64,000 nucleotides of DNA, from contig CAVYAY010000001.1 in assembly GCA_963766645.1 (NCBI GenBank), forward strand, positions 531,020-595,019. Reading direction: 5' to 3'. A model generated the notes under the pieces. The model was not told the DNA's origin. It saw nothing but the letters and a program-made list of their open reading frames with translations, and made no database searches. Source of the DNA: an uncultured Chloroflexia bacterium. Its GTDB lineage: Bacteria > Chloroflexota > Dehalococcoidia > DSTF01 > WHTK01. Made by a program: the position numbers and the translations under genes. This document shows, in pieces, positions 22,021-38,482 of the stretch. Every line of letters starts with the position of its first letter. Within the stretch, counting starts at the first letter, position 1.

Positions 22021-22042
22021 CCGGGACGAGCCTCCCGGGCCG

Positions 22043-22984: not shown

Positions 22985-22999
22985 GCGCTGTGCCTCTAA

Positions 23000-23878: not shown

Positions 23879-23879
23879 C

Positions 23880-24647
23880 CTAGCGGCCGCTCCACTGCGG
23901 CTGGCGCTTCTCGCGGAAAGCCTTGGGGCCTTCCAGCGCGTCCTCGGCTTCGAGAAGCTCGTCGTACACCTTTCGGACCATCGGCCTTACCTCTTCGGCA
24001 GGCAGCGTCAATGCTCGCTGGATGATCTCTTTGTGGGCCCTGACCGAAAGCGGAGAATTGCGGCAGATCTTCCGTGCATAATCAATCGCCGTGGGCATCA
24101 GCTCCTCCGGCGACACGACCTTGTTGGCGAAGCCGATCTCGTACGCGCGCTGAGCGCCGATCGGCTCGCCCGTCAGGCACAGCTCCATTAGCGCGCTCAG
24201 CGGTATCTGGTTCAGCAACGTGGGCGCAAAACCGGCGAGCAGGTGCCATTTCGTCTCCGTGATGCCGATCTGCGCCGTCTCCGACATGATGCGTATGTCG
24301 CAGCGCTGTGCATGTCCCCACCCGCCGCCATACGCAAACCCGTTGATCGCCGCGATCATCGGCTTGAAGCTCTCGGTCGGCACAACCCCGTTCTCCGGAG
24401 GCCTCGGGGCCTGCCCAGCGTCATCCGCCGCTGCGCGTTCCTTCAAGTCCCGCCCCACGCAGAACCCCCGGCCGGTCCCGGTAACGATGGCCACCCAGGC
24501 GCTGTCATCCGCCTTGAAACGCTCATAGCTCTCTGCCAGCGTCCGTGAAAGCTCTCGGTTCAGGGCGTTCAGCGCCTCCGGCCGGTTCAGTGTGATTACG
24601 ACAATGTGATCGTCGACTCGGTCGTAGAGAACAACAGGTTCTGCCAT
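23880..24647 (-). CDS. Enoyl-CoA hydratase/isomerase (crotonase)
   Basis: ITLNRPEALNAL...VTGTGRGFCVGRDL...AAINGFAYGGG. 255 aa. Confidence 0.85.
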   Translation of the reverse strand: MAEPVVLYDRVDDHIVVITLNRPEALNALNRELSRTLAESYERFKADDSAWVAIVTGTGRGFCVGRDLKERAAADDAGQAPRPPENGVVPTESFKPMIAAINGFAYGGGWGHAQRCDIRIMSETAQIGITETKWHLLAGFAPTLLNQIPLSALMELCLTGEPIGAQRAYEIGFANKVVSPEELMPTAIDYARKICRNSPLSVRAHKEIIQRALTLPAEEVRPMVRKVYDELLEAEDALEGPKAFREKRQPQWSGR

Positions 24648-24874
24648 GTCGGGACCCCTTTCGGGGGTTCACTCTAGCACCCGCACGCACCTGCTTCCGA
24701 AGTATTCCCGTTTGTACTGGAGCGCCTTTCAGCGGCCCACCCCAAAGGAATCTTGTAGACGCTTTCGATCGCCGGGATCGCGGACCTTCATAACCGGTGT
24801 GCACTGTCTTTGACACCCGGAATTACCGATGCTAGCTTCGCAAAGCTGTACAAGCGCTGAGCAAGGAGAATCGC

Positions 24875-25933
24875 ATGGTAACTCAGACTGCCGGAATCGA
24901 AGTTCTCAACCCGGTGGCTCAAACGGCCGCCGACGGCCAGGCGGTCCCGGCCGGCGATCTGCTGATGGCAGACCACGAGACGTTCGCGGGAGCGGACAGC
25001 TTCGACTCCTGGGAGAACTTCAACACCGAGTTCCTTGACCGCGGCTGGGGCGATGGCTTTCCCCTCGTGGCCCCGACCCGCGAGCGCGTAAATGCGTTCC
25101 TCGATTCTGTCAGGCACCTGGAGCTGGGGCCGTTGGACGTCATCGGCAAGCCCGTCGCTCCTGGCAACGGGATCGCGACGGTCGAGAAGCTCGCCATCAA
25201 CTGTGCAATGGCTGGTTGCCGTCCTGAGCACCTGACTGTCCTGATCAGCACGATTGAGGCAATCACCGAGACAGAGGATGTTGCCTTTCAGGCCGACCTC
25301 CAGTCGCCCGCCGGGCACTTCCCGATGATGCTGGTCAGTGGCCCGATAATACAGCAGATGGACATCAACTCCGGCATGTGCAGCCTGGGGCCGGGCAAAC
25401 CCTCGTTGGTCAACACCGTCCTCGGGCGCGCCCTGCGGCTCATCCTGATGAACGTTGGCCACGCATACCCGACTGCCAAGGACCTTGATACGATCGGCGT
25501 ACCGCAGAAGTTCAGTTACTGCCTCGCTGAGAACGAAGCCCAGAACCCCTGGGACGAACCCTTCCACGTTGAAATCGGTTTCCAACCCTCGGACAGCGTC
25601 ATTACCGTCTTCAGCGTCAGCGAAGTGGGCCACTTCGGCGGTTACACGGCAGAGCCGGAGCGTCTTCTCATCAGCCTTGCCAGGGGCATGCGGCACGCCG
25701 GCGGCGGTGAGCACGACGACAGCGGGCATCAGTACCTCATCATGTACTGCCCGGACCACGCGCGCAGCATGCACGTCGGCGGTGAGACCAAGGAGTCGAT
25801 CCGAAAGTTTGTTGTCGAAAACGTGCCCCTGAAGAACGGTGATAACGTGCACTTCACCGTCGTCGGCGGTCCGTCTTCCGGCAGCCACGTCTACAGGGCA
25901 TTGCCCTCCATCAGCAAGACGATTCGGCTCTAA
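24875..25933 (+). CDS. Uncharacterised 'GDGFP...AMAGC' family protein, copy P1 (no adjacent UxxC partner)
   Basis: 352 aa with AAGGAGAA upstream. Shares GWGDGFPLV, ATVEKLAINCAMAGCRPEHL, LGPGKPSLVNTVLGRALRLILMNVG and NPWDEPFHV with three paralogs in the window. I recognise no family name for it. Confidence 0.7.
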   Translation: MVTQTAGIEVLNPVAQTAADGQAVPAGDLLMADHETFAGADSFDSWENFNTEFLDRGWGDGFPLVAPTRERVNAFLDSVRHLELGPLDVIGKPVAPGNGIATVEKLAINCAMAGCRPEHLTVLISTIEAITETEDVAFQADLQSPAGHFPMMLVSGPIIQQMDINSGMCSLGPGKPSLVNTVLGRALRLILMNVGHAYPTAKDLDTIGVPQKFSYCLAENEAQNPWDEPFHVEIGFQPSDSVITVFSVSEVGHFGGYTAEPERLLISLARGMRHAGGGEHDDSGHQYLIMYCPDHARSMHVGGETKESIRKFVVENVPLKNGDNVHFTVVGGPSSGSHVYRALPSISKTIRL

Positions 25934-25990
25934 TACCGGAGGATCGCCTCCCGGCAGCAGGGCGGCGGCATCGAGATCGGGGGGTGCTGC

Positions 25991-28270
25991 GTGGCGGGTG
26001 CACTCGAAGGCATACGCGTCATCGATTTCGGCCAGTACATCGCCGGCCCGCTGGTCGCCATGCTCCTCTCCGACCAGGGCGCCGACGTCATTCGCGTCGA
26101 CCCGCCGGGTGGCCCGCGCTGGAGTCACCCAGCCAACGCCACGCTGAACCGCGGCAAGCGCCGATTAGAACTGGACCTTAGAGACCCGGCCGGCAAGACA
26201 GCCGCACTGAGTCTGATCGGCAGCGCCGACGTTGTTATCGAGAACTTCCGGCCCGGCGTCATGGAGAGTCTCGGGCTCGCCTGGGAGCAGGTGAGCCCTG
26301 ACCACGAGAGGCTCATCTACTGCTCGATTCCAGCCTTCGCCGCTGACGACCCTCGTGCCCGCTTGCCTGGCTGGGAAGGCGTCGTCGCCGCGGCGACTGG
26401 CGCTTTCCCCACTCGCCCCGGCCGCCGTCACCCGGCGAGCGCGGTCGAGCCAGAGGCAGTCGACGCGCCCCGGTTCACGGCGCTGCCGCTCGCGTCGGAG
26501 TACGGCGCGGTGGCGGCCGCGATCGGCATAGCGATGGCGTTGATCGCTCGCGAGCGCGACGGACTCGGGCAATGTCTGGAGATACCCCTCTTCAATGCGA
26601 TGTTTCTCGCCATCGGTTCCAGTGGCCTGCTGGTCAACGGCGGACCCTCGGGTGGACGCCCGATGGATCCCTGGGGCGGCATCTTCCCCGCCAAGGGCGA
26701 AGGCCGTGTGCTCATGAGCCTGCCCACGCCGCGATTCCTCGACACTTTCCTCAAGGCCACTGGCAAAGACCGCGAATGGGAAGACAAAGGCTACCTCGCG
26801 GCGGACGCCGTCAACGACAAGGATCTGATGGCGCGCCTTCAGCAAGACCTCGTCGACGTGTTCATGTCTCGCACTGCCGACGAGTGGGACGAACTGGCGA
26901 CCGAGGTAGGCGTCCCCGTAACGCCGGTGCGTCAGGCCCGCGGCTGGATGGAGGCGAAGCATACGCATGAGGCGGGGATATTCGTCTTGGTCGACGATCC
27001 GGAATTCGGGCCGATGGTCCAGCCCGGTCCGTCGATTAAACTCAACGGCACGCCGGGCGGCGTGCAGGCGCCGCGCGCGGCAACCGCCTCTCCGGGCATC
27101 GATGGCATCGACGTTACAGCCGCTATCGCCGGGCCCACAAAGGAACAACCCCTATCGGCGCCTCTCGAAGGCTTCCGGGTCATTGACACCACGTCGATCC
27201 TCGCCGGGCCCACGGCTGGCCGGACGCTCGCTGAGTTCGGCGCCGAGGTTATCAAGGTCAACAACCCTTGGGAGCAGGGGTCCGGTTATCGCTGGCAGGT
27301 CCACCGCTACCACAGCGACGTCAACCGCGGCAAGAAGTCGATCCTCATCGACCTGAAGCAGCCAGCGGGCCTCGACCTCCTCTGGCGGCTGGTCGAGAAG
27401 TCAGACGTCTACCTGCAGAACATGCGCCTCGGCGTTGCGCAGCGCCTCGGTGTTGCCTACGCGGACGTCAAAAAGCACAAGCCCGACATCGTCTACCTTT
27501 CGATCTCGGCCTTCGGCTACGGCGGGGAGTGGGAGTATCGTCCCGGCTATGAGCCCGTCGCGCAGAGCTTTTCGGGTATGCAGGCCCGCGGGCCCCAACC
27601 CTACGCCGTGAACGATTACTGCACAGGGTTGCTCGGCGCTTTCGGCGTTGGATTGGCTCTCTTTCATAGGCTACGCAGCGGTGAGGGGCAGAGCGTTGAG
27701 ACCTCGTTGGCCCACGCGTCAACCTATCTTCAGCTCCCTTACATGCAGCTCTACGCGGGCAAAAAGTGGGACGAACCCTCCGGCCCCCACGCCCGCGGCT
27801 GGAGCCCGCTACAGCGCATGTATCGCGCCAGCGACGGATGGTTCTTCTTGGGCGCGGCGTCCTCCCAGATAGACGCGCTGGCTTCGATCGCGGGGTTGGA
27901 AGCTGCGAAGCAGCCGACAGGAGACGCCCTGGCCGGCGCCCTCGAGGCCGCGTTCGCGGGGAAGACCGCGGCTGCCTGGGTCAAGTCGCTTACTGCTGCC
28001 GGGCTCGGCGCGTACCCCATCGGTATCACGGAGCCGGAGCTAATGGCCGATCCTTGGGTCGTTGACCACGGCCTCAGCGTCACCCAGACCTACAAGGACG
28101 GCTCGCGTATCACGACCATCGGCCCTCCTTGGCGCCTGTCCCGTACGCCCCCTTCCGTGCGACACCTCGTTTCGCCTCCTGGTGGCGATGCATACGAGGT
28201 TATCGCGAAAGCCGGCCTCAAGGACCGATTCGAAGAGCTTGTGCGCGAGAAAGCGGTTCTCCTCGAATAG
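25991..28270 (+). CDS. Tandem (two-domain) family III CoA-transferase
   Basis: 759 aa. Domain 1 starts LEGIRVIDFGQYIAGPLVAMLLSDQGADVIRVDPP. Domain 2 starts near residue 390 with LEGFRVIDTTSILAGPTAGRTLAEFGAEVIKVNNP. Confidence 0.8.
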   Translation: MAGALEGIRVIDFGQYIAGPLVAMLLSDQGADVIRVDPPGGPRWSHPANATLNRGKRRLELDLRDPAGKTAALSLIGSADVVIENFRPGVMESLGLAWEQVSPDHERLIYCSIPAFAADDPRARLPGWEGVVAAATGAFPTRPGRRHPASAVEPEAVDAPRFTALPLASEYGAVAAAIGIAMALIARERDGLGQCLEIPLFNAMFLAIGSSGLLVNGGPSGGRPMDPWGGIFPAKGEGRVLMSLPTPRFLDTFLKATGKDREWEDKGYLAADAVNDKDLMARLQQDLVDVFMSRTADEWDELATEVGVPVTPVRQARGWMEAKHTHEAGIFVLVDDPEFGPMVQPGPSIKLNGTPGGVQAPRAATASPGIDGIDVTAAIAGPTKEQPLSAPLEGFRVIDTTSILAGPTAGRTLAEFGAEVIKVNNPWEQGSGYRWQVHRYHSDVNRGKKSILIDLKQPAGLDLLWRLVEKSDVYLQNMRLGVAQRLGVAYADVKKHKPDIVYLSISAFGYGGEWEYRPGYEPVAQSFSGMQARGPQPYAVNDYCTGLLGAFGVGLALFHRLRSGEGQSVETSLAHASTYLQLPYMQLYAGKKWDEPSGPHARGWSPLQRMYRASDGWFFLGAASSQIDALASIAGLEAAKQPTGDALAGALEAAFAGKTAAAWVKSLTAAGLGAYPIGITEPELMADPWVVDHGLSVTQTYKDGSRITTIGPPWRLSRTPPSVRHLVSPPGGDAYEVIAKAGLKDRFEELVREKAVLLE

Positions 28271-28292: not shown

Positions 28293-29489
28293 TCAGATCG
28301 GCCGCGCGGCGTGGATGATCTCTCGCGTCACCGTCGGGTTCCCCATGCACGGCACCAGGTCGCTCTGCCCGTTCGGCCCGCCAACCACGACGATCTGCAC
28401 CTGCTCCGGGTTCTGAAACTCCGGCACGAGCTCTTCCGGGTCCATGGCCTCGAGGCGTTGCTGAAGGTCAGCTGGTAGCGCTTCCCAGCCGACTGACATC
28501 GTCGCCAGTGCCTGCTTCAGGGGCCTCCGCGCGTTTTGCAGCAGGTACTCCCTGATCGAGGTCTTGGTGTGACCCGATTCGCTGAGGACACGAGCGTGGT
28601 CGGGCGCCAGCAGCATCACCTGGCAAGACCCTCCTTCGCCCTCCGTCCGGCTCGGTATCAAGCCCGAAGGACCGCCCGATGCGGACGCCTTGCCGGCCCA
28701 GCCCAGCAATATCTTCTCCGCGTCGGCCTGGTAGTTGTTGTAATGCACCATGCTGTTCGCCCCGTACACGGTGACCGTGCTAGCGCTCCGCTCGAAACCC
28801 TTTTCGACGTGCAGCGGCTCCCAGGGGTTCTGCGCCTCGTTCTCAGCCACGCACATGCTGTACTTGGTCGGGCTGCCGATGGTGTCCATGTCGCCACTGC
28901 CGGGGTAGCAGTGGCCTACGTTCATCAGGACCAGCCGGAGCGCCCGGCCCAGGACTGTATTCACCAGCGACGGTTTGCCGGGGCCGAGGGTGCAGCGCCC
29001 GTTGTTGATACCCAGCTCCTGGACAATTGGCCCGTTGATCACCAGCATCGTCGTCGTCGGGTTCGTCGACATCGTGATGCCGCGGACGGGAAACACCTCC
29101 TGCGGTGTTTCGAGGATCGCCTCCACCGCTGCGATCAGTACCGCGAGATGCTCCGGCCGGCAGCCGGCCATGACTGCATTGACCGCGACCTTCTCCACTG
29201 TCGCGGCACCGTAAAACGGCGCCAGCTTGCCGAGGACGAGGCCGGGCGGCAAGCGCACCGCGCGCAGCGCCGCTTCAACGCGCGCGCGTGTCGGCGGGAC
29301 GAGCGGGAACCCGTCGCCAATGCCGCGCTCGTTGAAATCGCCGTTGAATCGGTCCCACGCCTCGATCAAGTCTTCGCCGTGGTAGCGCTCCCGCCGTGCG
29401 GGCAGCGGTTCCCGCCCGCGCAGGTCTGCCTCCAGCTGAGCCACCGGGTTCAGAACATCTAGCGTGGCGGTATCACTGCGGGAGCTCAT
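28293..29489 (-). CDS. 'GDGFP...AMAGC' family protein, copy P2
   Basis: GIGDGFPLVPPT, ATVEKVAVNAVMAGCRPEHLAVLIAAVEAI, LGPGKPSLVNTVLGRALRLVLMNVGHCYP, NPWEPLHV. The N-terminus has LDVLNPVAQLEAD. Confidence 0.7.
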   Translation of the reverse strand: MSSRSDTATLDVLNPVAQLEADLRGREPLPARRERYHGEDLIEAWDRFNGDFNERGIGDGFPLVPPTRARVEAALRAVRLPPGLVLGKLAPFYGAATVEKVAVNAVMAGCRPEHLAVLIAAVEAILETPQEVFPVRGITMSTNPTTTMLVINGPIVQELGINNGRCTLGPGKPSLVNTVLGRALRLVLMNVGHCYPGSGDMDTIGSPTKYSMCVAENEAQNPWEPLHVEKGFERSASTVTVYGANSMVHYNNYQADAEKILLGWAGKASASGGPSGLIPSRTEGEGGSCQVMLLAPDHARVLSESGHTKTSIREYLLQNARRPLKQALATMSVGWEALPADLQQRLEAMDPEELVPEFQNPEQVQIVVVGGPNGQSDLVPCMGNPTVTREIIHAARPI

Positions 29490-29523
29490 GGCACAGTCCC
29501 AGCACCACAGGGGGAGGCCTGGT

Positions 29524-30027
29524 TCAGGACTCCCGGATCAGGCAAGCGATAATCGAATCGAGAGCCGCCTCGGCTGCCTCTTCCACTTGGCTGTCCGACA
29601 GGGTTGCCAGCAACCTTCGCAACTCCACGAACTCGTAGTTCTGCAGGCCCATCACCCGCGCCATAGAGCGTACGATGTTCGCATAGGCCCGGTTGCATAT
29701 TGTCACGCCCGGCTTGCCGTCCCGTTCGGCGGCATACATGTCGTGCAAACTGCACGACGCGCACGGCGCTCAATCGCCAATCGCAGTGATGAAGACGTCC
29801 GCACGGGGGATGAAGCCCTCAAGCAGCTTGCTGTCGGCCGGCCAGGTTGGCTCGAGCTTGCTTGCCCAGACTACATCCCGCAGGTTGAACCGCGCCCGGA
29901 GGAGCTCAACGACCTTCTCCAGAAAGACCTTGCTCCCATGCTTGTTATTGTCGAGTACGCCTAGCACGAGCCCGTCCAGGCTGACGGGACGTTCCGCGGC
30001 CAGTGTCTCGCCAGAGTCCCTCGACAA
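29524..30027 (-). CDS. Putative small selenoprotein, UxxCxxC variant (U-A-P-C-A-S-C) of the UGSC-type family (U3)
   Basis: ORF 29770..30027 ends ...FITAIGD-TGA (29772..29770). The same frame stays open for 81 more codons: APCASCSLHDMYAAERDGKPGVTICN...ACLIRES (ORF 29524..29748 is its tail). It is collinear with the other two UxxC genes. Confidence 0.65.
29740..29758 (-). promoter_or_regulatory. SECIS-like hairpin, 11 nt after the TGA
   Basis: mRNA GUCGUGC-AGUUU-GCACGAC: perfect 7-bp stem with a 5-nt loop. Confidence 0.55.
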
Positions 30028-30037
30028 AGCTATTTCC

Positions 30038-30283
30038 CTACCTGGCCGGGACGATCTCGACTTCCCTCACGTACGGCGCCTGCGCCTTGCACATCGCCTC
30101 GGCCATCTCCTTGAACGCGTCTGGCTCCATGATGCACTCGGGGCATTCCGCGTTCGTGCCCTCGTAATAACGGACGCGTAGCACGCCGGCTTCAACGTTC
30201 ATGGGCTCGACGATTACGCCCTCGTTGTCCTCCAGGGATGACCTCAGCGTGTTCAGAATGAGCTCGATTTTCTCGTCGATCAT
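30038..30283 (-). CDS. NifU/Nfu C-terminal-domain-like small protein with a CPEC motif
   Basis: 81 aa. IELILNTLRSSLEDNEGVIVEPMNVEAGVLRVRYYEGTNAECPECIM matches the Nfu pattern (dGG..elv....g.v.v...G.C..C). Confidence 0.6.
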   Translation of the reverse strand: MIDEKIELILNTLRSSLEDNEGVIVEPMNVEAGVLRVRYYEGTNAECPECIMEPDAFKEMAEAMCKAQAPYVREVEIVPAR

Positions 30284-30320
30284 GACGTCTCCAGACCAGC
30301 CGCAATTGCGGCCTTCTCTA

Positions 30321-32033
30321 TCAGGTTTCGATAACCTTGCTGATCGAGGCTGGCCCTGTAATGAACTCGCTCACACCGTGGTCGCCGCCAATTACGGCGA
30401 TGTGGATATGACTCGGGTTCGGGTCGCCCCGGATTGGTGTCTCCGGGTCCATGGCTGCGATACGGTCCTTGACCTCCTGCGGCACAGCTTCCCAACCGAT
30501 GAAAGCATACGTTGCGAGGAATTCACGAAGCGGTGTCGCGGGCGCGTTTTGCACCATGTACGCCTGCAGATCGGCTTTGCTGTAGCCGGCCGCGACCAGG
30601 CTGCGAGCGTGTTCCGGCCCCAGGATCAGGAGCTGCCCGCCACGGTCGGCATCACCCTCTGTGCGGCTAGGTATGCCCAACGCTCCGCCACCACCCGCGC
30701 CAGAGCCACCGCCACCCGCCGCACCACGGGCGGCCAGTACCTTGAGCAACGGGCCGACGTCGCCGGGGTCGCTGGCAAACGACGAGACGTCGCCTGCGGC
30801 AAACATCGTTACCACGCTTTGGTCCGCGTCAAAGCCCCGGCTGACGTGGAAAGGCTCACCCCAGGGGTTGGCGTCCTCATTCTCGGCGAGAACGGCGCTG
30901 TACTTGCCGGAAGTCCCAATCGTATCGAGGTCCAGAATCTCCGGATACGCCTGCGCCACGTTCATGATGATCAAACGCATCGCCCGGCCGATTACCGTGT
31001 TGACGCGGCCCGGCTTGCCAGGGCCCCACGCGTTCATTCCTGTGTGCAGTCCAAGCTGCTTCACAATCGGTCCGTTCAGCAGCATCAGCGGATAGCCCGC
31101 GCCGTGAGAAGACAGCAGGATCCGCAACGGAAACTGGCCGATCGGTGACTCCAGCATCGCCTGTATCGCGGCGATCAAGACCGGCATGTGAGCTGGCTCG
31201 CAGCCGGCCATCGCAGCGTTGATCGCGATCTTTTCGATGGTCGCCATGCCGTCGCCGGGCGGGAAGGGGCGTCCCACCACGTCCAGCGGCTGCCAGCGGT
31301 TGCTCACGTAGTCGAGGAACGGTTTTACACGTTCGGGAGTCGGTGGGAACAGCGGGAAACCATCGCCCCAACCTCGCTCCATAAACGCCTCGTTGAACGC
31401 CTCCCATGCGTTGAGCCGGCTGGAGGACCCAAAGGATTCCGTGGCCGCCCGCTGCAGTTCACGCACGACAGCTCCCGAAACGTCCGCCGGTGGCGTCACG
31501 AGCGCCTCCAGCACCTCGGGCAGCGATGCGTCCGCATCCCCGCTGGCCTGGGGCTCTGTCCGGCTTGTCAGGGTGTACGGGATCACGACTTGCACCAGGG
31601 AGGGGAAACCGAACACCTTTGACGATGCGGCAAAATCTGCTTCATAGCCGACCGACGTGATGGAGACCGTGGGGATCCCGAGCTTCTCAAGCTCTGTCAT
31701 GTCATACGCAAGGTACGACGTGCAGGACCCTCAATCGGCTGTCGCGCCGACCACGATGTCGCAGTGATCAGCCTCGATTGCCTCCAGCACCGATTTCTGG
31801 ATCGGACGCCTGCTGTCGTAGTGGAAGGTTTCCATACTTGGAAACTGCTGCTTCAGCCGAGTCTCAACCTGGTTCAGGTAGTGGATGCCACCGGGTTTGC
31901 GGTTCCAGTAGAAGCCGACCCGCTTACCTTCCAATGACCTGGGTCGAGTCGGCATCACAAGCGCCTCACCCAGGTCTGCAGCCAGCTGCGAAACCGGGTT
32001 CAGTACCTCAAATGCATCAGTCTCGGTAACCAT
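30321..32033 (-). CDS. Putative selenoprotein: UGSC-type domain fused to a 'GDGFP...AMAGC' domain (U2-P3), 570 aa if TGA is read as Sec
   Basis: ORF 31731..32033 ends ...DIVVGATAD-TGA (31733..31731). The same frame continues GSCTSYLAYDMTELEKLGIPTVSITSVGYE... into ORF 30321..31700, which carries GWGDGFPLFPPT, NAAMAGCEPAHMPVLIAAIQAM, WGPGKPGRVNTVIGRAMRLIIMNVAQAYP and NPWGEPFHV. Confidence 0.7.
31701..31719 (-). promoter_or_regulatory. SECIS-like hairpin, 11 nt after the TGA
   Basis: mRNA GUCGUAC-CUUGC-GUAUGAC: 7-bp stem (one G.U pair) with a 5-nt loop. Same spacing and geometry as the hairpin at 29740..29758. Confidence 0.55.
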
Positions 32034-32097
32034 CGTCTCCTCCTGCGCAGTAATCGGAACCGTCGCATTAGAATCTAGCCGCGCTCACGCGAAGCGG

Positions 32098-33081
32098 TCA
32101 AAAAGCATAACCATTTGGCTTGACCATTTCCCGGGACGAACGCGTCAGCTCATCTGTCTGCTGATGCCGCTCGAGGAGCCACGCCATGAACACGCGGGCT
32201 ACCGGCGACAAAGGCCTTCGCGGGTGGACAAGGTAAAGCTTCCTGTCAAAGCGAATGCCGCGGATCCGGACCGGAGCTGCGCCGACAACCTCGCCTCGAC
32301 TGAAGGGAAGGTATGAAATCCACGACATGCCGAAGCCGTGTGAAACCGCGTTGAGACAGGCCTGGGCCGAATTCAGCGCCATCACAACACGCCGCTGAGG
32401 ATGCTCGATACCCAACTGACGAAGTTTTGACGCCACCGTGGACACAACCGTCCCCACGTCCGCTGAAGACCTGTCACGGATGATGAACGGCTGTCCCGCA
32501 AGATCTTCCAGGTCGATCTCGCCGCAGGCCGCGAAGCGATGCGTCGACGGCACCGCCAGGACAACTTCGTCATCCGCCACCGGATAGCATCGAAGCGATT
32601 CGGAGGCGGGGCTGCGACCGATGAAGCCGAGTTCGGAGCCGCCCTCCAGAAGGTCTTCCTCGACGCCGTCGCTGTCTGAAATAAAGACGTGGGGCGCAAC
32701 GTCCGGGTTCTCGGCGCTAAACTCTCGCACCCAGCCCAGCACCAGGAAGTCGCAGAGCGTGGTGCTGGCGCCGATTCGCAAATCGCCCCTCGCTTCGCTG
32801 GATTCCCGTCGTATCTCCTCCATGACGTTGTCGAACCGGCCGAGCGTGTCGCGCGCGTCGGCCAGGAACTTCTCGCCCATGGTGGTCAGCTCCAGGTGCC
32901 TCGCATCGCGCTCGAACAGCGTCACGCCCAGGCGCCCCTCCAACTTCATAAGCTGCCGGCTGACTGCCGGCTGCGTAACGCCGAGACGCTTGGCCGCCGC
33001 CGTAAAGGTGCCCGTCTCCTCGGCTGCAATCAACGTCCGCATCTCGTTCAGCGAAACTTCGGCTTCCTTCCGGGTTCTCAT
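32098..33081 (-). CDS. LysR-family transcriptional regulator
   Basis: HTH LNEMRTLIAAEETGTFTAAAKRLGVTQPAVSRQLMKLEGRLGVTLFERDARHLELT. Start trimmed to ATG 33081, preceded by GGAGGC. Confidence 0.85.
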   Translation of the reverse strand: MRTRKEAEVSLNEMRTLIAAEETGTFTAAAKRLGVTQPAVSRQLMKLEGRLGVTLFERDARHLELTTMGEKFLADARDTLGRFDNVMEEIRRESSEARGDLRIGASTTLCDFLVLGWVREFSAENPDVAPHVFISDSDGVEEDLLEGGSELGFIGRSPASESLRCYPVADDEVVLAVPSTHRFAACGEIDLEDLAGQPFIIRDRSSADVGTVVSTVASKLRQLGIEHPQRRVVMALNSAQACLNAVSHGFGMSWISYLPFSRGEVVGAAPVRIRGIRFDRKLYLVHPRRPLSPVARVFMAWLLERHQQTDELTRSSREMVKPNGYAF

Positions 33082-33183: not shown

Positions 33184-34128
33184 TTAGGAGTTCCTCTCGC
33201 CGCGATTCTTGAGATAACGGTAAGCGGCGACCGCCGCCGTTGCCCCGTCGCCGGCGACGGCAGCTAGCTGAGCCACCGAATTCTGGCGGATGTCGCCCGC
33301 TGCGAAGACCCCAGGCGCCGACGTCTGCATCATGATGTCGGTCACTATGTGGCCACTCGGGTCGAGATCGACAGCTCCCTGGAGGAACGTCGTATTCGGG
33401 TCAAGGCCCACGAAGATAAATACGCCGGCAAACTCCTGGGTCTCGCTCTTCCCGGTAGCGAGATCCACTAACCGGACGCCCGTCACAGCGTCGCTGCCGA
33501 TGATTTCTTCGACCTGGCGCCCATAGGCCACCTTCAGGTTTGGTTTTGCCTCGGCCTTCTCGACAATGGCCCGCTGCAATCGCAGCTCCGCGCCGCGGTG
33601 AAACAGCGTCACGTCAGACGCGAATTCGGTCAGCACGACGGCTTCGTCCACCGCCGCGTCGCCGCCGCCGACTACGCAGACCGACTGCCCGGAAAAGAAG
33701 GGACCATCGCAGGACGCGCAATGCGAGACGCCTTTCCCCACCAACTCCTCTTCGCCCGGCACGCCGAGGCTACGCAGCGTCGAACCCGAAGCGATGACCA
33801 GCGTCCGCCCGGTCACCTCGCTCTCATCGCACCTTACGAGCTTCTCATCGCCGCCAGTGTCGATCGAGAGGGCCGAATCAAAAACAAACTCGGCGCCCGC
33901 CATCTGGGCCTGCTCTTGCAGCATCGGCCCGAGTTCATACCCCGGGACGCCTTCTGGGAACCCCGGGAAGTTCTCAACTTTGTCGACGTTGATGATCTGA
34001 CCGCCCGAAGTGCCCCTGTCGATCACGGCGACACTTAGCCCGAAGCGGCTGGCCGTCAAAGCGGCCGTCAGTCCGGCGACGCCTGCGCCAATAACCAGCA
34101 AATCGTAGTCACTCATGTCCGTTCCCAC
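33184..34128 (-). CDS. trxB: Thioredoxin-disulfide reductase
   Basis: YDLLVIGAGVAGLTAALTASRFG (FAD GxGxxG), redox-active VSHCASCDGPFF, second dinucleotide site VVGGGDAAVDEA, C-terminal FAAGDI. Confidence 0.85.
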   Translation of the reverse strand: MGTDMSDYDLLVIGAGVAGLTAALTASRFGLSVAVIDRGTSGGQIINVDKVENFPGFPEGVPGYELGPMLQEQAQMAGAEFVFDSALSIDTGGDEKLVRCDESEVTGRTLVIASGSTLRSLGVPGEEELVGKGVSHCASCDGPFFSGQSVCVVGGGDAAVDEAVVLTEFASDVTLFHRGAELRLQRAIVEKAEAKPNLKVAYGRQVEEIIGSDAVTGVRLVDLATGKSETQEFAGVFIFVGLDPNTTFLQGAVDLDPSGHIVTDIMMQTSAPGVFAAGDIRQNSVAQLAAVAGDGATAAVAAYRYLKNRGERNS

Positions 34129-34164: not shown

Positions 34165-35881
34165 TTAGCCGCCCGAGCGCACCAGTTCGGGCCCAAGCTC
34201 TCGCACGTCCTGAATTGGGCCGGAGCTGTAGTCGCCAAGCCGAAGCTGCACCGACGCTTGCTGATCTCCGAAAGCCTCATGGCGAAGAACGACATTGCTC
34301 AGACCGCATTGCGATACCGCCGCCCGCGCTAACGAAAGCATCTGTGCATCGCCCGGGGCTCCCTTTAGCGTGGCGATGCAAGGTGGCGACAAGAAGCGCG
34401 CCAGCGCGCCACCGAAGCCTGCCGCCATGGCGCCGTACTCGCGGTGAAACTCGTCGAACGGCCAGAGAGCCCCAGTAGGCCCCTTCTCGGTAGACGGACT
34501 CGCCGGTGAGGTCCGCCAACCGTGTTAGGAACGCAGCCGCTTGAGCGTTCTGAGCCGGGAGCGTCAACGGACGACCCAACCCTCCCGGGCCTGTTGCGCT
34601 GATATCGGAGTAGCCTCCGGCCGGATTGCGGTGCTCCGAGACAACGTAGACCGCCAGGTCCAGGGCCCGCTGCAGTTGCGTCACATCGCCCAGCAGGGCA
34701 TACGCGTCCAGCATCGCCGACCCGGCTGCGACAGCATCTAGCAACAAACCGTAAATCAAAGGTTCGCCATCCCAGTAGTGAGACAGGCCGCCATCCTGCT
34801 GGTGAAGCGTGACCCAGAGCCACTCAAGGACTGTTACCGCGCGGTCTCGGCAGTCCTCTCGGCCCAGGATTAGCCATGCCTGCATGTATGCAGATGCGGC
34901 GCGGGCGTTCTGGTCGGCGTAGACGCAATCGTCGAGGTACGAGTCCAGCGGGCCGTCCACACCTTCCGGACCCGCAACGCGTCGGATGTAGTCCTGGCAG
35001 CCGAGGAACACGCCCTTGTCAGCGTCCAGTAGCGTCCCGTCCATGTCGTCGATCAGCTCCTCCGCGCAACCGCGGTAGAAGTCATCACCGGTCAATAAAA
35101 AGGTATGTAGGAAGTTGCGGAGCATCCCGGCCTGGTCGTCGAGCAGCTTCTCCGGGTGCGGCTCCTCCCAGTCCAGGCGAGACGAGTAGCGATAGTAGCC
35201 TCCTCCGCCTTCAGAGTGATACATGCTGCTGGAACGCATTTTCTCTAGCGTCAGCTGTACATGGGTTAGAAATAATCCCTCTCCGGTCACCTCGTACAGG
35301 TATAGGAAAAGGTCGTTCGCTTCGCTATGCGGGAACTTCGATTCGAGGCCGTATCCACCGTGTACTGGGTCGGCGAGGCCCTGCACCATGCCTGCGATCT
35401 CGCCCACGAGCGAGACGTTGAGACCCGCCCGGTTAGGGGTAGCCACGGGCCGGTCTGTCTGGGTTGCCCGTACCCGTTCGATTAGCTCTTCCTTCTTCTC
35501 GTGGTACGTGTTGGCGGCCTGCGCCAGGATGTCAACCATCGGCTTGGGACCGAGCGAGTTGAGCGTGAACATGTGGTCACCACCGGGTGTAAGAATCGCC
35601 AGGGTCGGCCAGCCGTTTTGCGTGTAGCGCGCGTCTATGTCCGGCCGGCGCGCTTCCTCCACGCGGATTGGCAGGAAGTTCGCGTTCAGCGATGCAATGA
35701 CCTCGTCGTCGGAGAACGTAACCTCGTCCATGCGCTGGCAGGCGCCACACCAGAAGGCCACAATCTCAAGGAAGACGGGCTTGTCCAGCTGTTTCGCTTC
35801 TGCGAAAGCGGCGTCGCCCCACGGCCGCCATTCGATCAGGTGAGCCTTGTTCGGCCGCGCCGAGAAGCGGAACTCCCTCAT
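34165..35881 (-). pseudogene. Thioredoxin-domain (DUF255 / YyaL-like) protein with a CGAC motif; one frameshift near 34459-34461
   Basis: N-terminus FLEIVAFWCGACQRMDEVTFSDDEVIASLNANFLPIRVEEARRPDIDARY. The body is like the six-hairpin-glycosidase-type domain of YyaL. The C-terminus continues in ORF 34165..34428 (FDEFHREYGAMAAGFGGALARFLSPP...). The span is 1717 nt. Confidence 0.65.
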
Positions 35882-35945: not shown

Positions 35946-37064
35946 CTAGTCCCATTCCCAGTTGATCTTCTTGGTGACCATGCCGCCGCCGTCGCGCTTG
36001 GAGTGGTTGCCGCCCGTGAACAGGTAGCTCACATGGCCGCCGCCCCATCCACCACTCACCATGACCTGCATGTGTGACGGGTCGGTGATGTGATAGACCT
36101 TGGCCTCGCCGTCATTGAGGTCGACGCGATTAGCCCAGTGGTTCGCCGCTGTGTGGGTTTCCTGCGGCACCCCCGGAGACTGCAAATCGTGCTGCGCCTG
36201 CTTGTCTTTGACCAAGTGATACGTGTTCTCCCACACCGTGTCGCGGAAGCGTTCCTTGCTCCAGCCGGCGTCGGCAAGCATCTTCGCCGCATCCGGATTA
36301 AGTGCTATGACCGTGCAGGCGCCGCTGCGTAACTGTGCGATCCGGCGGCCCATATCGGCCACATTGCGCTCCAGGTCGGCGCCCGTCCTGACGAAGCCCG
36401 TACCCAGATACGTGCCGTGAGCGTCGAGCACCGTGACCGCACTGTCTTCAGCCTTCAGTCCAGCCGCGCTGACGTGGAAGGGCTCCCACGGGTTTCCGTC
36501 GTCGGTAGGCCGCTCGCAGATCAGATGGCCCCAACGGTCGGCCTGAGCGAAGACACACTTCGCCAGTTCCCCTGGCTTCGTCAGCCCGACATTCCACTGG
36601 ATCAGCCGTATCGCCCTCGCGATCGTGCCATTCGCACGGTTGCCGGAACCCGCCAGCGCGCCTTCGGCATAGTGGAAGCCGAGCTTCTTCACCACGGGTC
36701 CGCTGATGATTGCGAGCGGCGGACCCCCCACCGTACTGACTGAATTCAGGATGTGGTAGTCGTCATCCAGGATCGCCTCCATGGCGGTAATCACCACTGG
36801 CACGTACTCCGGCCGGCAGCCTGCCATCGCGCAGTTGATAGCGATCGCCTCCATCGTGACCTCGCCCTCACCAGGCATGAGGACACCGAGACTCTCGTCC
36901 GCCGGGCGACCGATGTAGTCGAGAATCTGCCGCACCCGCCGCTCGGTGGGCACGAAGACCGGGAAGCCATCCGTCCAGCCCTGTTCGAAGACGAAGTCGG
37001 TGAAATCGTCGATGTCTTCGATGCTGAACTTCTTCGCCGCCAGCTTGAAATCTTCCGCAACCAT
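35946..37064 (-). CDS. 'GDGFP...AMAGC' family protein, copy P4 (most divergent)
   Basis: GWTDGFPVFVPT, EAIAINCAMAGCRPEYVPVVITAMEAI, GNRANGTIARAIRLIQWNVG, NPWEPFHV. Start trimmed to ATG 37064, 2 nt after the TAA of the upstream UGSC gene. Confidence 0.7.
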   Translation of the reverse strand: MVAEDFKLAAKKFSIEDIDDFTDFVFEQGWTDGFPVFVPTERRVRQILDYIGRPADESLGVLMPGEGEVTMEAIAINCAMAGCRPEYVPVVITAMEAILDDDYHILNSVSTVGGPPLAIISGPVVKKLGFHYAEGALAGSGNRANGTIARAIRLIQWNVGLTKPGELAKCVFAQADRWGHLICERPTDDGNPWEPFHVSAAGLKAEDSAVTVLDAHGTYLGTGFVRTGADLERNVADMGRRIAQLRSGACTVIALNPDAAKMLADAGWSKERFRDTVWENTYHLVKDKQAQHDLQSPGVPQETHTAANHWANRVDLNDGEAKVYHITDPSHMQVMVSGGWGGGHVSYLFTGGNHSKRDGGGMVTKKINWEWD

Positions 37065-37066
37065 CG

Positions 37067-37708
37067 TTATTCCCCTGTTTCCTGCGAGGACGATTCCCGG
37101 CCGCGGCGCGGTTGCGAGCCCCGCTGACTCTCCTGCGGCTGCCACTTCTGAGCCGTCAGCATGTCTTTCAGCTTCATCGCCTGCTCGTGTGCCTTGAGCA
37201 CGACTTCCTCGTGTGACTCCGCGGACGGCTTGTCCGCCGGGTACGCGATCACGACATTGCTAGAGTCTTCGATGCCCAGCAACTTCAACTCCGTCCGAGC
37301 AAGCCTTTCGAAGTGCTCGTGGACCATAACCACGGAGGGGATACCTTCTTTTAGCATGTTTGCCGCGTCACGCACGGCTGCAGTACTGCAGGATCCTCAA
37401 GCCCCGACGCCGGTGATCGCATAGTCGATCTTCGGCGCCATCTCCTGGATATCTGAGATGGGGGATGGTATCCACGTGTTGCCGTGGAACTTACCGTCGC
37501 CCATGTCGTGTTTGTAGTGACGTTGGATGTCGCGGGGCTCGTAGAGCTCGGTCACCGCGTTTTCCATCTCCGGCCAGAACTTCGTCGAGATATCGTGCAT
37601 GCCCCAGAGGAACCCGACACGCTGGCCCTCAACTGTCTCAATCGTCTTCAACGGCTTCCGCTGCGTCGCTGCCGTTGAGCCTTCGGGAGAAAGGAACTCA
37701 ATGCTCAT
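37067..37708 (-). CDS. Putative UGSC-type selenoprotein (U1), 213 aa if TGA is read as Sec
   Basis: ORF 37397..37708 ends ...DYAITGVGA-TGA (37399..37397). The same frame continues GSCSTAAVRDAANMLKEGIPSVVMVHEHF... into ORF 37067..37375. Confidence 0.7.
37362..37378 (-). promoter_or_regulatory. SECIS-like hairpin, 18 nt after the TGA
   Basis: mRNA GCCGUG-CGUGA-CGCGGC: 6-bp stem (one G.U pair) with a 5-nt loop. An alternative smaller hairpin, CUGCA-GUAC-UGCAG, lies 5 nt after the TGA. Confidence 0.4.
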
Positions 37709-38265: not shown

Positions 38266-38341
38266 TGGTAGCGGTACGGGGATTCGAACCCCGGTTTTAG
38301 CCTTGAGAGGGCTACGTCCTGGTCCCCTAGACGATACCGCC
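38266..38341 (-). tRNA. tRNA-Glu (anticodon CUC), CCA encoded
   Basis: Hand-folded 76 nt: acceptor GGCGGUA/UACCGCU (G1.U72), D stem GUCU/GGAC, anticodon stem UAGCC/GGCUA with loop CU-CUC-AA, T arm CGGGG-UUCGAAU-CCCCG, discriminator A, CCA. Confidence 0.9.
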
Positions 38342-38356
38342 CTGCGAAAGTCGTAG

Positions 38357-38430
38357 TGGCTGGGGAGGGAGGATTCGAACCCCCGCATACGGATCCAGAG
38401 TCCGCTGTCCTACCACTAGACGACTCCCCA
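38357..38430 (-). tRNA. tRNA-Gln (anticodon CUG), CCA encoded
   Basis: Hand-folded 74 nt: acceptor UGGGGAG/CUCCCCA, anticodon stem GCGGA/UCCGU with loop CU-CUG-GA, T arm GGGGG-UUCGAAU-CCUCC, discriminator G, CCA. Confidence 0.9.
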
Positions 38431-38482
38431 TCGGGGCTTCATCCTAGCATAGCGATTTCCGGCGATCCAAACCGCATAAACC

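What the first reader, a model, noticed from the sequence alone, without database searches (positions are those of the whole stretch)
30321..32033. In-frame TGA joins two track ORFs into a 570-aa UGSC::P3 fusion selenoprotein
- ...DIVVGATAD-TGA-GSCTSYLAYDMTELEKLGIPTV... is one continuous frame.
- The 31731..32033 ORF would otherwise be a 100-aa stub.
- The 30321..31700 ORF has no RBS-like start of its own. Its M lies 11 codons after the TGA.
- A hairpin with a 7-bp stem and 5-nt loop (GUCGUAC-CUUGC-GUAUGAC) starts 11 nt after the UGA. That is the position expected for a bacterial SECIS.
Basis: seen in the sequence. Interest (0 to 1): 0.8.

Follow-up and report, generated by a model that had tools for sequence, protein, structure and literature searches.

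The report
Mis-split UGSC selenoprotein fusion gene
Two neighbouring reading frames in an uncultured Dehalococcoidia genome are really one 570-residue gene whose internal TGA most likely encodes selenocysteine; this is a real but ordinary member of a selenoprotein family and domain pairing that were already described, and public gene calls cut it in two.

Summary
On the minus strand, 32033 to 30321 is one frame with a single TGA (31733-31731). A strong Shine-Dalgarno sequence precedes the first ATG only. A 7-bp/5-nt hairpin starts 11 nt after the TGA.

- The Pfam UGSC domain spans the TGA.
- In 80 related genome loci the aligned codon is TGA 81 times, TGC/TGT 7 times and CAG once. In most top-ranked loci a single tblastn match runs through both domains.
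- The hairpin is conserved in the same register, with compensatory changes including paired synonymous ones.
- An 82%-identical ortholog keeps the TGA and the next 33 nt exactly, but has Leu where the window's downstream ORF would start.

It is not new in kind. UGSC selenoproteins and a "UGSC/Unknown_1" fusion were reported in 2008, and Pfam and NCBIfam models exist.

Points beyond the finding:
- The window holds three UGSC genes with TGA, each paired with the same roughly 370-residue domain. That domain has no Pfam, NCBIfam or clear PDB relative.
- Three sampled stand-alone copies of the domain elsewhere each have a split UGSC gene just upstream.

Selenocysteine machinery and selenium incorporation could not be tested. 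Biochemical function remains unknown.

The parts
30321..32033 (-). Complete gene for the 570-residue UGSC::CT selenoprotein (ATG 32033-32031; terminal TGA 30323-30321, followed by TAG)
   Evidence: Single frame with one internal TGA. Public gene calls split it into a 100-aa protein (P0121) and a 459-aa protein (P0001).
32037..32044 (-). Shine-Dalgarno sequence AGGAGGAG, 3 nt upstream of the ATG
   Evidence: Upstream sequence read directly. The ATG at 31700 has no equivalent.
31731..31733 (-). In-frame TGA, codon 101, proposed selenocysteine (the U of UGSC)
   Evidence: Aligns with Cys in protein homologs. Aligns with TGA 81 times, TGC/TGT 7 times and CAG once in 80 loci. TGA is an ordinary stop elsewhere in the window.
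31701..31719 (-). SECIS-like hairpin: stem 31719-31713 / 31707-31701 (GUCGUAC / GUAUGAC), loop 31712-31708 (CUUGC), 11-nt spacer after UGA
   Evidence: Present in the fold. Same register in 83 TGA sites with covariation. Synonymous-site covariation. The 33 nt after the TGA are identical in ortholog L081 while the flanks differ.
31497..32006 (-). UGSC domain (residues 10-179), spanning the TGA
   Evidence: Pfam PF24696, E = 5.7e-28, profile positions 2-171 of 172. In the AlphaFold model of Cys homolog P0010, DSSP shows an alternating strand/helix domain. The Cys equivalent to U follows a strand and lies just before the next helix; its position was placed by reading P0010's sequence against the DSSP string.
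30324..31445 (-). C-terminal 'CT' domain (residues about 197-570) of unknown function. Motifs GWGDGFP, ATIEKIAINAAMAGC, NGPI, GPG..RVN..GRA, DxDTxG..KYS, AENE..PW
   Evidence: No Pfam, NCBIfam or PDB sequence match. Confident AlphaFold model, pLDDT 90.8, with only weak fold matches. The family has 3820 clusters at 50% identity.
31200..31202 (-). Codon for Cys278 (in AMAGC), the only nearly invariant Cys of the CT domain
   Evidence: Conserved in at least 90% of 94 aligned sequences, including stand-alone CT proteins.
29524..30027 (-). Second UGSC gene of the same gene string, with in-frame TGA at 29772-29770 (...AIGD-U-APCASC...) and hairpin GUCGUGCA-GUU-UGCACGAC in the same register
   Evidence: (Pfam E = 4e-33).
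28293..29489 (-). Stand-alone CT paralog (CT2), 34 nt downstream of the second UGSC gene
   Evidence: tblastn 44% identity to the fusion's CT domain, E = 1e-91.
37067..37708 (-). Third UGSC gene, with in-frame TGA at 37399-37397 (...TGVGA-U-GSC...). Its hairpin GCCGUG-CGUGA-CGCGGC lies in a shifted register
   Evidence: Pfam E = 8.8e-27. A similar downstream hairpin (CCGCG-CGUGA-CGCGG, same loop) occurs in L056 and L059.
35946..37064 (-). Stand-alone CT paralog (CT3). Its ATG lies 2 nt after the stop of the third UGSC gene

Best explanation
The 100-aa and 459-aa ORFs are one gene. Translation starts at ATG 32033, behind a strong Shine-Dalgarno sequence. At codon 101 the UGA is decoded as selenocysteine by the standard bacterial route: SelB with Sec-tRNA(Sec) is recruited by a SECIS hairpin inside the coding sequence, 11 nt downstream of the UGA. 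The product is a 570-residue protein with two domains.

The N-terminal UGSC domain carries the U-G-S-C (UxxC) motif. In the model of a Cys homolog this motif sits between a beta strand and the following helix. The UGSC domain is joined to a conserved domain of about 370 residues and unknown function, here called CT. CT has one nearly invariant cysteine (Cys278).

Shown here:
- gene continuity and Sec/Cys homology;
- the conserved hairpin with covariation;
- the recurrent pairing of UGSC with CT, either fused or as adjacent genes.

Inferred only:
- actual Sec insertion;
- a selenol/thiol redox role for UxxC (the literature's view of the family);
- cooperation of Sec101/Cys104 with Cys278 of the CT domain.
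For: Gene continuity:
- The sequence is one frame with a single TGA; only the first ATG has a Shine-Dalgarno sequence.
- Pfam UGSC covers residues 10-179 across the TGA.
- Full-length Cys homologs of 550-600 aa exist, one of them named 'UGSC family (seleno)protein' by NCBI.
- In 80 loci from Chloroflexota, Proteobacteria, Binatia, Actinomycetes and Bacillaceae the aligned codon is TGA in 81 sites, TGC/TGT in 7 and CAG in 1.
- The closest homolog's contig shows the same layout: a 100-aa ORF, 30 nt, then a 459-aa ORF, in frame.
- Ortholog L081 keeps the TGA and the identical 33 nt after it, and has CTC (Leu) where the window has ATG 31700.

Hairpin:
- 57 of 83 Sec sites have 7 of 7 pairs, against none of the 7 Cys forms.
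- 89.2% of cells are paired and 6 of 7 pairs carry double changes.
- Third-position synonymous changes co-occur: Ser UCA only with His CAU (Fisher p = 8e-4, uncorrected for relatedness), and Thr ACA mostly with Asp GAU (p = 3e-4, likewise uncorrected).

Genetic code:
- TGA terminates LysR, CT2 and this gene itself, so the code is standard.

Local context:
- Two more UGSC genes in the window carry TGA at the same motif position, each followed by a hairpin.

UGSC-CT linkage:
- There are three pairs in the window, the L081 and L082 loci, and 3 of 3 sampled stand-alone CT genes with a split UGSC gene directly upstream.
Against: - No selA, selB, selD or tRNA-Sec was seen in the 64-kb window. ARAGORN and the Rfam gathering scan found only tRNA-Glu and tRNA-Gln, and the protein genes were not searched for systematically. 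The rest of the genome could not be retrieved.
- No Rfam family matches the hairpin, and no dedicated bacterial SECIS predictor was available.
- The window's own hairpin is only modestly more stable than shuffles (z = -2.0).
- Part of the stem conservation comes from conserved amino acids (T-S-W..H-D). The Cys forms still keep 4-6 of the 7 pairs.
- The NCBIfam equivalog model scores below its cut-off (86.7 against 125 bits).
- The redox function and any contact between the domains' cysteines were not tested.
Confidence: 0.9

Rival explanations
1. These are two separate genes, or a pseudogene. The TGA is a true stop or a nonsense mutation or sequencing error, and the 459-aa ORF is translated from its own ATG at 31700, if at all.
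For: Public gene calls annotate it this way (P0121 plus P0001). An ATG lies 11 codons after the TGA.
Against: - ATG 31700 has no ribosome-binding site.
- That ATG is Leu (CTC) in the 82%-identical ortholog.
- The UGSC domain would be cut in half, since the Pfam match spans the TGA.
- The 10 codons between the TGA and the ATG encode the family's conserved GSCTS motif.
- The same TGA recurs at 81 homologous sites in distant phyla. That excludes a private mutation or a sequencing error.
Confidence: 0.03
2. UGA is read by something other than the Sec machinery. Options are a genome-wide reassignment (code 4 or 25, to Trp or Gly) or near-cognate read-through. The residue at position 101 would then not be selenocysteine.
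For: The Sec machinery could not be checked in this genome.
Against: - TGA ends LysR, CT2 and the fusion gene itself, so there is no reassignment.
- The aligned residue in non-TGA homologs is Cys in 7 of 8 cases, never Trp or Gly.
- A conserved, covarying hairpin directly after the UGA is the signature of SelB-dependent recoding.
Confidence: 0.03
3. The conserved hairpin is only a by-product of the conserved amino acids (T-S-W-x-x-H-D) and has no RNA function.
For: The stem lies on conserved codons, and the Cys forms retain 4-6 of 7 pairs.
Against: - Synonymous third positions covary. Ser UCA occurs only with His CAU. Thr ACA occurs mostly with Asp GAU (6 of 9 against 5 of 57).
- Amino-acid replacements stay complementary. 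W/H to Y/Y in the window gives UGG/CCA to UAC/GUA. W to C gives UGC/GCA in gene 2.
- 57 of 83 Sec forms have perfect 7/7 stems, against none of 7 Cys forms.
- Slid registers pair in at most 50% of cells, against 89% in register.
Confidence: 0.04

Closest known systems
UGSC-containing selenoprotein family (Zhang & Gladyshev 2008, PMC2398784; Pfam PF24696; NCBIfam NF041046 'UGSC family (seleno)protein')
   Same: - The U-G-S-C (UxxC) motif with Sec at the conserved position.
- The Pfam domain match (98.6 bits against a 25-bit cut-off).
- Sec forms far outnumber Cys forms: 81 against 7 here, and 255 against 21 in the GOS data.
- Function still uncharacterized, according to the 2026 review PMC13188914.
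   Different: - This protein is below the NCBIfam equivalog cut-off (86.7 against 125 bits).
- The motif context is diverged: Y..Y where most members have W..H.
- It carries an extra C-terminal domain of about 370 residues.
- The best PDB fold matches of the modelled homolog are flavodoxin-like and SIS-type alpha/beta domains. The 2008 paper suggested a thioredoxin-like fold.
'UGSC/Unknown_1' fusion reported from GOS metagenomes (Fig. S1A of PMC2398784)
   Same: A UGSC selenoprotein fused to a conserved domain of unknown function. At least one conserved Cys is reported as the rule for these fused domains.
   Different: The identity of Unknown_1 with the CT domain here could not be verified, because the figure is held only as an image. 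The present data add three points. The pairing is general, either fused or as adjacent genes. The fused forms with TGA occur across many phyla. CT still has no Pfam or NCBIfam model.
Bacterial SECIS elements (SelB-binding hairpins immediately 3' of UGA, e.g. E. coli fdhF; general description in PMC9312934)
   Same: A stem-loop inside the coding region immediately 3' of the UGA, which is the placement the review describes. From my recollection of the consensus model, not re-read here: the apical loop begins 18 nt after the UGA, which falls in the expected 16-37 nt range, and the small apical loop containing G/U is also as expected.
   Different: - There is no match to any Rfam model.
- This is a family-specific version whose stem is written in the codons for T-S-(W/Y/C)...(H/Y)-D.
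- The third UGSC gene in the window uses a hairpin in another register.
Selenoprotein B components of glycine and D-proline reductase (GrdB/PrdB, UxxC; partner proproteins GrdE/PrdA). Analogy only.
   Same: A UxxC selenoprotein module that works with a separate, larger partner protein encoded next to it. PrdB's UxxC motif is listed in Table 2 of PMC2398784. The partner-protein part rests on my own knowledge of these systems.
   Different: No sequence relationship was detected. Pfam GRDB and Gly_reductase models do not hit even at E <= 10. No pyruvoyl-forming motif was tested. This is a resemblance in logic, not membership.

Membership tests
UGSC family (Pfam PF24696) | Domain match above Pfam's gathering score, covering the whole domain | tested here: met
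   98.6 bits against a 25-bit cut-off; residues 10-179 match profile positions 2-171 of 172, across the TGA.
UGSC family (Pfam PF24696) | U/C-G-S-C motif at the conserved position | tested here: met
   ATAD-U-GSC aligns with TADCGSC / TADCGAC of Cys homologs and with D-TGA-GSC in 80 loci.
UGSC_fam equivalog (NCBIfam NF041046) | Score above the curated equivalog cut-off (125 bits) | tested here: not met
   86.7 bits for the fusion and 101.2 bits for the window's second UGSC gene. Both are family members by Pfam but diverged from the equivalog model.
Bacterial selenoprotein gene (SelB/SECIS-dependent UGA recoding) | In-frame UGA aligned with Cys (or UGA) in homologs, with coding conservation on both sides | tested here: met
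   TGA 81 times, TGC/TGT 7 times, CAG once. In most top-ranked loci a single match spans both sides. See also the protein alignment.
Bacterial selenoprotein gene (SelB/SECIS-dependent UGA recoding) | Stem-loop immediately 3' of the UGA, supported by conservation and covariation | tested here: met
   Helix at alignment columns 24-30 / 36-42: 89.2% of cells paired, 6 of 7 pairs with double changes, no shuffle out of 500 reaching the observed covariation score. Synonymous-site covariation.
Bacterial selenoprotein gene (SelB/SECIS-dependent UGA recoding) | Hairpin passes a dedicated bacterial SECIS model (bSECISearch or a covariance model) | not testable with these tools
   Rfam gave no hit at the gathering threshold or at E <= 10. 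bSECISearch was not available.
Bacterial selenoprotein gene (SelB/SECIS-dependent UGA recoding) | The genome encodes selA, selB, selC (tRNA-Sec) and selD | not testable with these tools
   Only tRNA-Glu and tRNA-Gln were found in the window. The 916,649-bp source contig could not be fetched.
Bacterial selenoprotein gene (SelB/SECIS-dependent UGA recoding) | Selenium is actually incorporated at the UGA | not testable with these tools
   Needs 75Se labelling or mass spectrometry.
UGSC/Unknown_1 fusion (Zhang & Gladyshev 2008) | The fused domain is the same as 'Unknown_1' | not testable with these tools
   Figure S1A is held as an image only. No CT motif string was found in the stored supplements.
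Class I fumarate hydratase / CyuA-type [4Fe-4S] hydro-lyases (considered for the CT domain) | Clear fold match and a three-Cys cluster site | tested here: not met
   Foldseek E about 4e-4 but TM about 0.2 and rmsd about 18 A. The CT domain has only one nearly invariant Cys.

The most novel reading that the evidence does not exclude
UGSC may not be a free-standing thioredoxin-like oxidoreductase. It may instead be the dedicated selenium-bearing part of a two-part enzyme. The catalytic body would be the roughly 370-residue CT domain, which has no Pfam, NCBIfam or clear PDB relative yet forms about 3,800 clusters at 50% identity. Sec101/Cys104 would work with the invariant Cys278 in a composite active site. 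This resembles the logic of GrdB/GrdE or PrdB/PrdA reductases. The substrates would be organic acids or acyl-CoA compounds, in the catabolic gene islands of Dehalococcoidia and other bacteria. The fusion in this window, the adjacent-gene versions, and the shared N-terminal strand motif would then be three states of one module.
Probability: 0.3. Interest if true: 0.55.

Novelty: new member of a known kind. Interest (0 to 1): 0.3.

Why it matters
For this genome the result is an annotation repair. Public gene calls list a 100-aa stub and a 459-aa fragment where there is one 570-residue selenoprotein. Two neighbouring UGSC genes are split in the same way.

More broadly, UGSC is one of the most abundant aquatic selenoprotein families and still has no known function. 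The data here show it is systematically tied, fused or adjacent, to one uncatalogued domain family. That gives a concrete partner and a confidently modelled two-domain protein to take to the bench.

The family-specific SECIS, written into the T-S-W..H-D codons, is a clean example of an RNA structure constraining protein sequence. It could also be used to find and correctly annotate these genes.

Tried and rejected
- Rfam at the gathering threshold on the whole window, and at E <= 10 on 29400-32100, gave no SECIS-type hit, only a chance snoRNA match. This is uninformative rather than negative.
- Look-ups of the window's own proteins, to fetch the source contig and its Sec machinery, found nothing on record. 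The organism was instead inferred from GltX homologs, all from 'Dehalococcoidia bacterium' MAGs at 57-89% identity.
The Cys homolog P0010 (40% identical) was modelled instead.
- A PDB sequence profile search for the family found nothing. Fold searches gave only generic alpha/beta hits for the UGSC domain. For CT they gave weak, low-TM hits to class I fumarate hydratase, CyuA and Toblerone-fold hydrolases. These are not accepted as homology.
- The neighbourhood census in 80 loci found no fixed partner apart from UGSC/CT paralogs. CoA-transferase III occurred in 6-8 loci and enoyl-CoA hydratase in 7-9. By tblastn with the window's proteins, thioredoxin reductase occurred in 2 and the NifU-like ORF in 2. 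The other recurrent clusters were labelled by eye, not by a family search: a Bug/TctC-like cluster in 16 loci, an SDR-like cluster in 10, and an MmgE/PrpD-like cluster in 8.
- A scan for further TGA-joined ORF pairs in the window found only the three UGSC genes. The other candidates are off-frame artefacts. The one at 45602 was checked and rejected: junk upstream, and a membrane-protein-like ORF downstream that does not need the upstream part.
- Supplement Figure S1A of the 2008 paper could not be read as text.
- The contigs carrying P0002 and P0005 returned gene layouts but no DNA.
Full report
**1. The observation**

Reading the minus strand from 32033 to 30321 gives a single frame of 570 sense codons. 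The only interruption is one TGA at codon 101 (+ coordinates 31733-31731)...DIVVGATAD-TGA-GSCTSYLAYDMTELEKLGIPTV....

The first ATG is preceded by AGGAGGAG. The ATG of the 3' ORF, 11 codons after the TGA, is preceded by CTGCACGTCGTACCTTGCGTATGAC, with nothing like a Shine-Dalgarno sequence.

The hairpin GUCGUAC-CUUGC-GUAUGAC (31719-31701) begins 11 nt after the UGA and is part of the minimum-energy fold. Taken alone its stability is unremarkable: z = -2.0, and 10 of 200 shuffles fold as well. Whether it means anything has to come from comparison.

**2. One gene, not two**

Several independent results point the same way.

- The Pfam UGSC model (PF24696) matches residues 10-179 with profile positions 2-171 of 172. 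The match runs straight across the TGA (E = 5.7e-28, 98.6 bits against a 25-bit cut-off). Either ORF alone holds half a domain.
- A protein search with U replaced by C found two length classes. About 22 proteins of 550-600 aa cover 85-100% of the query. Many proteins of about 450 aa begin just after the TGA position.
- In the alignment the long forms carry Cys at the TGA column (TADCGSCTSWL / TADCGACSSWL). One of them, P0024 from Phytohabitans suffuscus (570 aa), is already named 'UGSC family (seleno)protein' by NCBI.
- At DNA level a scan of one genome per species returned 80 loci. They come from Chloroflexota/Dehalococcoidia, Alpha-, Beta-, Gamma- and Deltaproteobacteria, Binatia, Methylomirabilota, Actinomycetes and Bacillaceae.
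- In most top-ranked loci a single tblastn match runs from about residue 8 to about residue 500-569. The codon aligned with the window's TGA is TGA in 81 sites, TGC in 6, TGT in 1 and CAG in 1.
- The Cys forms sit in Nonomuraea, Mycobacteriaceae, Sphingomonadales and other Alphaproteobacteria.
- The contig of the closest homolog (83% identical) shows the same layout: a 100-aa ORF, a 30-nt gap, then a 459-aa ORF, in frame.
- An 82%-identical syntenic ortholog (L081) has the TGA, the identical 33 nt after it, and then CTC (Leu) where the window has ATG 31700. The 3' ORF therefore has no conserved start of its own.

TGA is an ordinary stop in this window. It ends the LysR gene, the CT2 gene and this gene itself. 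A reassigned genetic code is excluded.

**3. The hairpin as a SECIS element**

I cut out TGA-centred 57-nt stretches (9 nt upstream, the TGA, 45 nt downstream) from all homologous TGA sites. This gave 83 distinct sequences, which align without gaps. The window's seven stem pairs correspond to columns 24-30 / 36-42.

- Across the set, 89.2% of cells form standard pairs.
- Six of the seven pairs show changes on both sides.
- 39 cells carry double changes, against 9.1 +/- 2.6 in shuffles.
- No shuffle out of 500 reaches the observed covariation score.
- Sliding the 3' partner by 1-3 columns drops pairing to 22-50%.

The commonest form is ACG UCG UGG AGU GUC CAC GAC, with stem GUCGUGG(A)/(U)CCACGAC. 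The second commonest has the window's loop, CUUGC.

Because the stem is written in conserved codons (T-S-W..H-D), I looked at synonymous sites.

- The third base of the Ser codon is A only when the third base of the His codon is U (4/0 against 6/42, Fisher p = 8e-4).
- The third base of the Thr codon is A mostly when the third base of the Asp codon is U (6/3 against 5/52, p = 3e-4).
- These tests are not corrected for relatedness.

Amino-acid replacements also stay complementary. In the window's gene, W to Y (UGG to UAC) is matched by H to Y (CAC to UAU) and by GCC to GCG. In the second UGSC gene, W to C (UGC) pairs with GCA.

57 of 83 Sec forms have 7 of 7 pairs. None of the 7 Cys forms does; they have 4-6.

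From the bacterial SECIS consensus as I recall it (not re-read here), the apical loop starts 18 nt after the UGA, inside the expected 16-37 nt range. No Rfam model matches, and no dedicated predictor was available.

**4. Context in the window**

The gene is not alone.

- A second UGSC gene (30027 to 29524) has an in-frame TGA at 29772-29770 (...AIGD-U-APCASC...). A stronger hairpin sits in the same register: GUCGUGCA-GUU-UGCACGAC, part of a -33.7 kcal/mol fold of the 71-nt region.
- A third UGSC gene (37708 to 37067) has TGA at 37399-37397 (...TGVGA-U-GSC...). Its hairpin is in a shifted register (GCCGUG-CGUGA-CGCGGC), and a similar hairpin with the same loop follows the TGA in L056 and L059.
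- Each is followed by a paralog of the fusion's C-terminal domain: CT2 34 nt downstream (29489 to 28293) and CT3 2 nt downstream (37064 to 35946). A fourth copy lies at 24875-25933 on the + strand.
- CT2 and CT4 begin with the same N-terminal motif as the fusion (xxVLNPVAQxxAD). The UGSC core therefore looks like an insertion after a shared N-terminal strand.
- The run from 37708 to 28293 is all on the minus strand. In order it holds UGSC3, CT3, a DUF255 thioredoxin-domain protein, a thioredoxin-reductase-like flavoprotein, LysR, the fusion, an 81-aa weakly NifU-like ORF, UGSC2 and CT2. It is flanked by family III CoA-transferases, an enoyl-CoA hydratase and an HpcH-type lyase.
- The neighbouring GltX is 57-89% identical to proteins from 'Dehalococcoidia bacterium' MAGs. 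The window therefore comes from an uncultured Dehalococcoidia.

**5. The protein**

An AlphaFold model of the 40%-identical Cys homolog P0010 is confident: pLDDT 93.2, pTM 0.93. The UGSC part is an alternating strand/helix domain. The Cys equivalent to U follows strand E102-108 and lies just before helix H111-126. I placed it by reading P0010's sequence against the DSSP string. That is a classical position for a redox-active Cys or Sec. PDB fold matches are only generic flavodoxin-like or SIS-type domains.

The window's own CT domain also models well (pLDDT 90.8) but has no relatives in the standard libraries.

- It has no Pfam or NCBIfam match.
- It has no PDB sequence match.
- It has only weak, low-TM fold matches to class I fumarate hydratase, CyuA and Toblerone-fold hydrolases (E about 4e-4, TM about 0.2). 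I do not accept these as homology.
- It has one nearly invariant Cys (Cys278, in AMAGC) and a set of invariant Gly, Pro, Asp, Arg and Glu positions.
- The family is sizeable: 3820 clusters at 50% identity at E <= 1e-3, and 2314 at 1e-10. It includes stand-alone forms of about 350 aa, fusions, and proteins of about 710-740 aa with two CT copies.

Three stand-alone CT genes picked from the hit list each have, directly upstream, a UGSC gene split in two by the gene caller, which implies a Sec form. Locus L082 carries two tandem fusions plus a separate pair. UGSC and CT therefore form a recurrent two-part module. No other neighbour is constant.

**6. How it most likely works**

Shown here: one gene, Sec/Cys homology at the TGA, a conserved covarying hairpin in SECIS position, and a conserved UGSC-CT pairing.

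Inferred from established knowledge of bacterial Sec decoding (summarized in PMC9312934): SelB with Sec-tRNA(Sec) binds the hairpin and inserts Sec at codon 101, giving the 570-residue protein.

Inferred more weakly: the UxxC motif performs selenol/thiol chemistry. This is the literature's view of the family (PMC2398784). It may serve, or act together with, the CT domain and its invariant Cys. The adjacent thioredoxin-reductase-like and thioredoxin-domain genes fit a redox role, but they are not conserved neighbours elsewhere (2 of 80 loci).

**7. Comparison with what is known, and novelty**

UGSC-containing proteins were described as a major aquatic selenoprotein family in 2008, with 255 Sec and 21 Cys forms in GOS. 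The same paper reports a 'UGSC/Unknown_1' fusion. I could not verify that Unknown_1 is the CT domain, because the figure is an image, but it is the obvious candidate. The family has Pfam and NCBIfam models and is still listed as functionally uncharacterized in 2026.

The finding is therefore a correct identification of a new, mis-annotated member of a known kind, not a new kind of thing. Modest additions from this work:
- the clustering of three Sec-UGSC genes, with one fused and two adjacent CT partners in one locus;
- the generality of the UGSC-CT pairing;
- the absence of any catalogue entry for CT;
- the family-specific SECIS with amino-acid-level compensation.

**8. Verdict**

- Observation: confirmed.
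- Interpretation: supported.
- Confidence that this is a single Sec-recoded gene: about 0.9.
- Interest: about 0.3.

The main untested points are the presence of Sec machinery in the genome, actual selenium incorporation, and the biochemical function.

Noticed in passing
window 29524-30027 (-), TGA at 29770-29772; CT2 at 28293-29489 (-): A second UGSC gene has an in-frame TGA (...AIGD-U-APCASC...) and a strong hairpin (GUCGUGCA-GUU-UGCACGAC) in the same register as the finding. It is followed 34 nt later by a stand-alone paralog of the fusion's C-terminal domain. Gene callers also split it in the ortholog L081 (83 + 71 aa).
   Followed up: yes
window 37067-37708 (-), TGA at 37397-37399; CT3 at 35946-37064 (-): A third UGSC gene has an in-frame TGA (...TGVGA-U-GSC...). 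Its downstream hairpin (GCCGUG-CGUGA-CGCGGC) lies in a different register, and a similar hairpin with the same loop follows the TGA in loci L056 and L059. A third CT paralog starts 2 nt after its stop.
   Followed up: partly
window 24875-25933 (+), and the N-termini of 28293-29489 (-) and 30321-32033 (-): A fourth CT paralog has no adjacent UGSC gene. CT2 and CT4 begin with the same N-terminal motif (xxVLNPVAQxxAD) as the fusion. The UGSC core therefore looks like an insertion after a shared first strand, or the stand-alone forms have lost it.
   Followed up: partly
window 30324-31445 (-) and homologs P0127-P0271: The roughly 370-residue CT domain has no Pfam, NCBIfam or PDB sequence relative. 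It nonetheless forms about 3,800 clusters at 50% identity. Some proteins of about 710-740 aa carry two copies (P0131, P0134, P0140, P0142).
   Followed up: partly
L086 3379-5077; L087 3463-5044; L089 3474-5059; L082 3638-9458: Stand-alone CT genes in unrelated contigs each have a UGSC gene directly upstream, split in two by the gene caller. L082 holds two tandem TGA-containing fusions plus a separate CT/UGSC pair.
   Followed up: partly
window 30038-30283 (-): An 81-aa ORF lies between the fusion and the second UGSC gene. It has a weak NifU-like match (E = 0.002, below the cut-off) and a CPEC motif. An 80-aa ORF sits at the same place in ortholog L081, and similar ORFs occur in L005 and L013.
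   Followed up: partly
window 33184-34128 (-) and 34277-35881 (-): A thioredoxin-reductase-like flavoprotein and a DUF255 thioredoxin-domain protein sit between the third UGSC/CT pair and the LysR gene, on the same strand. This fits a redox theme. However, a thioredoxin reductase is near UGSC-CT genes in only 2 of 80 other loci.
   Followed up: partly
window 19535-28270: A dense set of family III CoA-transferase genes (19535-20785, 20782-22020, and a double-domain 759-aa protein at 25991-28270). With them are an enoyl-CoA hydratase, an HpcH-type lyase and an alpha/beta hydrolase. A similar double CoA-transferase lies next to homolog P0005.
   Followed up: partly
window 38266-39973 (-): tRNA-Glu(CUC), tRNA-Gln(CUG) and a glutamyl-tRNA synthetase gene lie together. 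The GltX protein places the window in uncultured Dehalococcoidia.
   Followed up: yes
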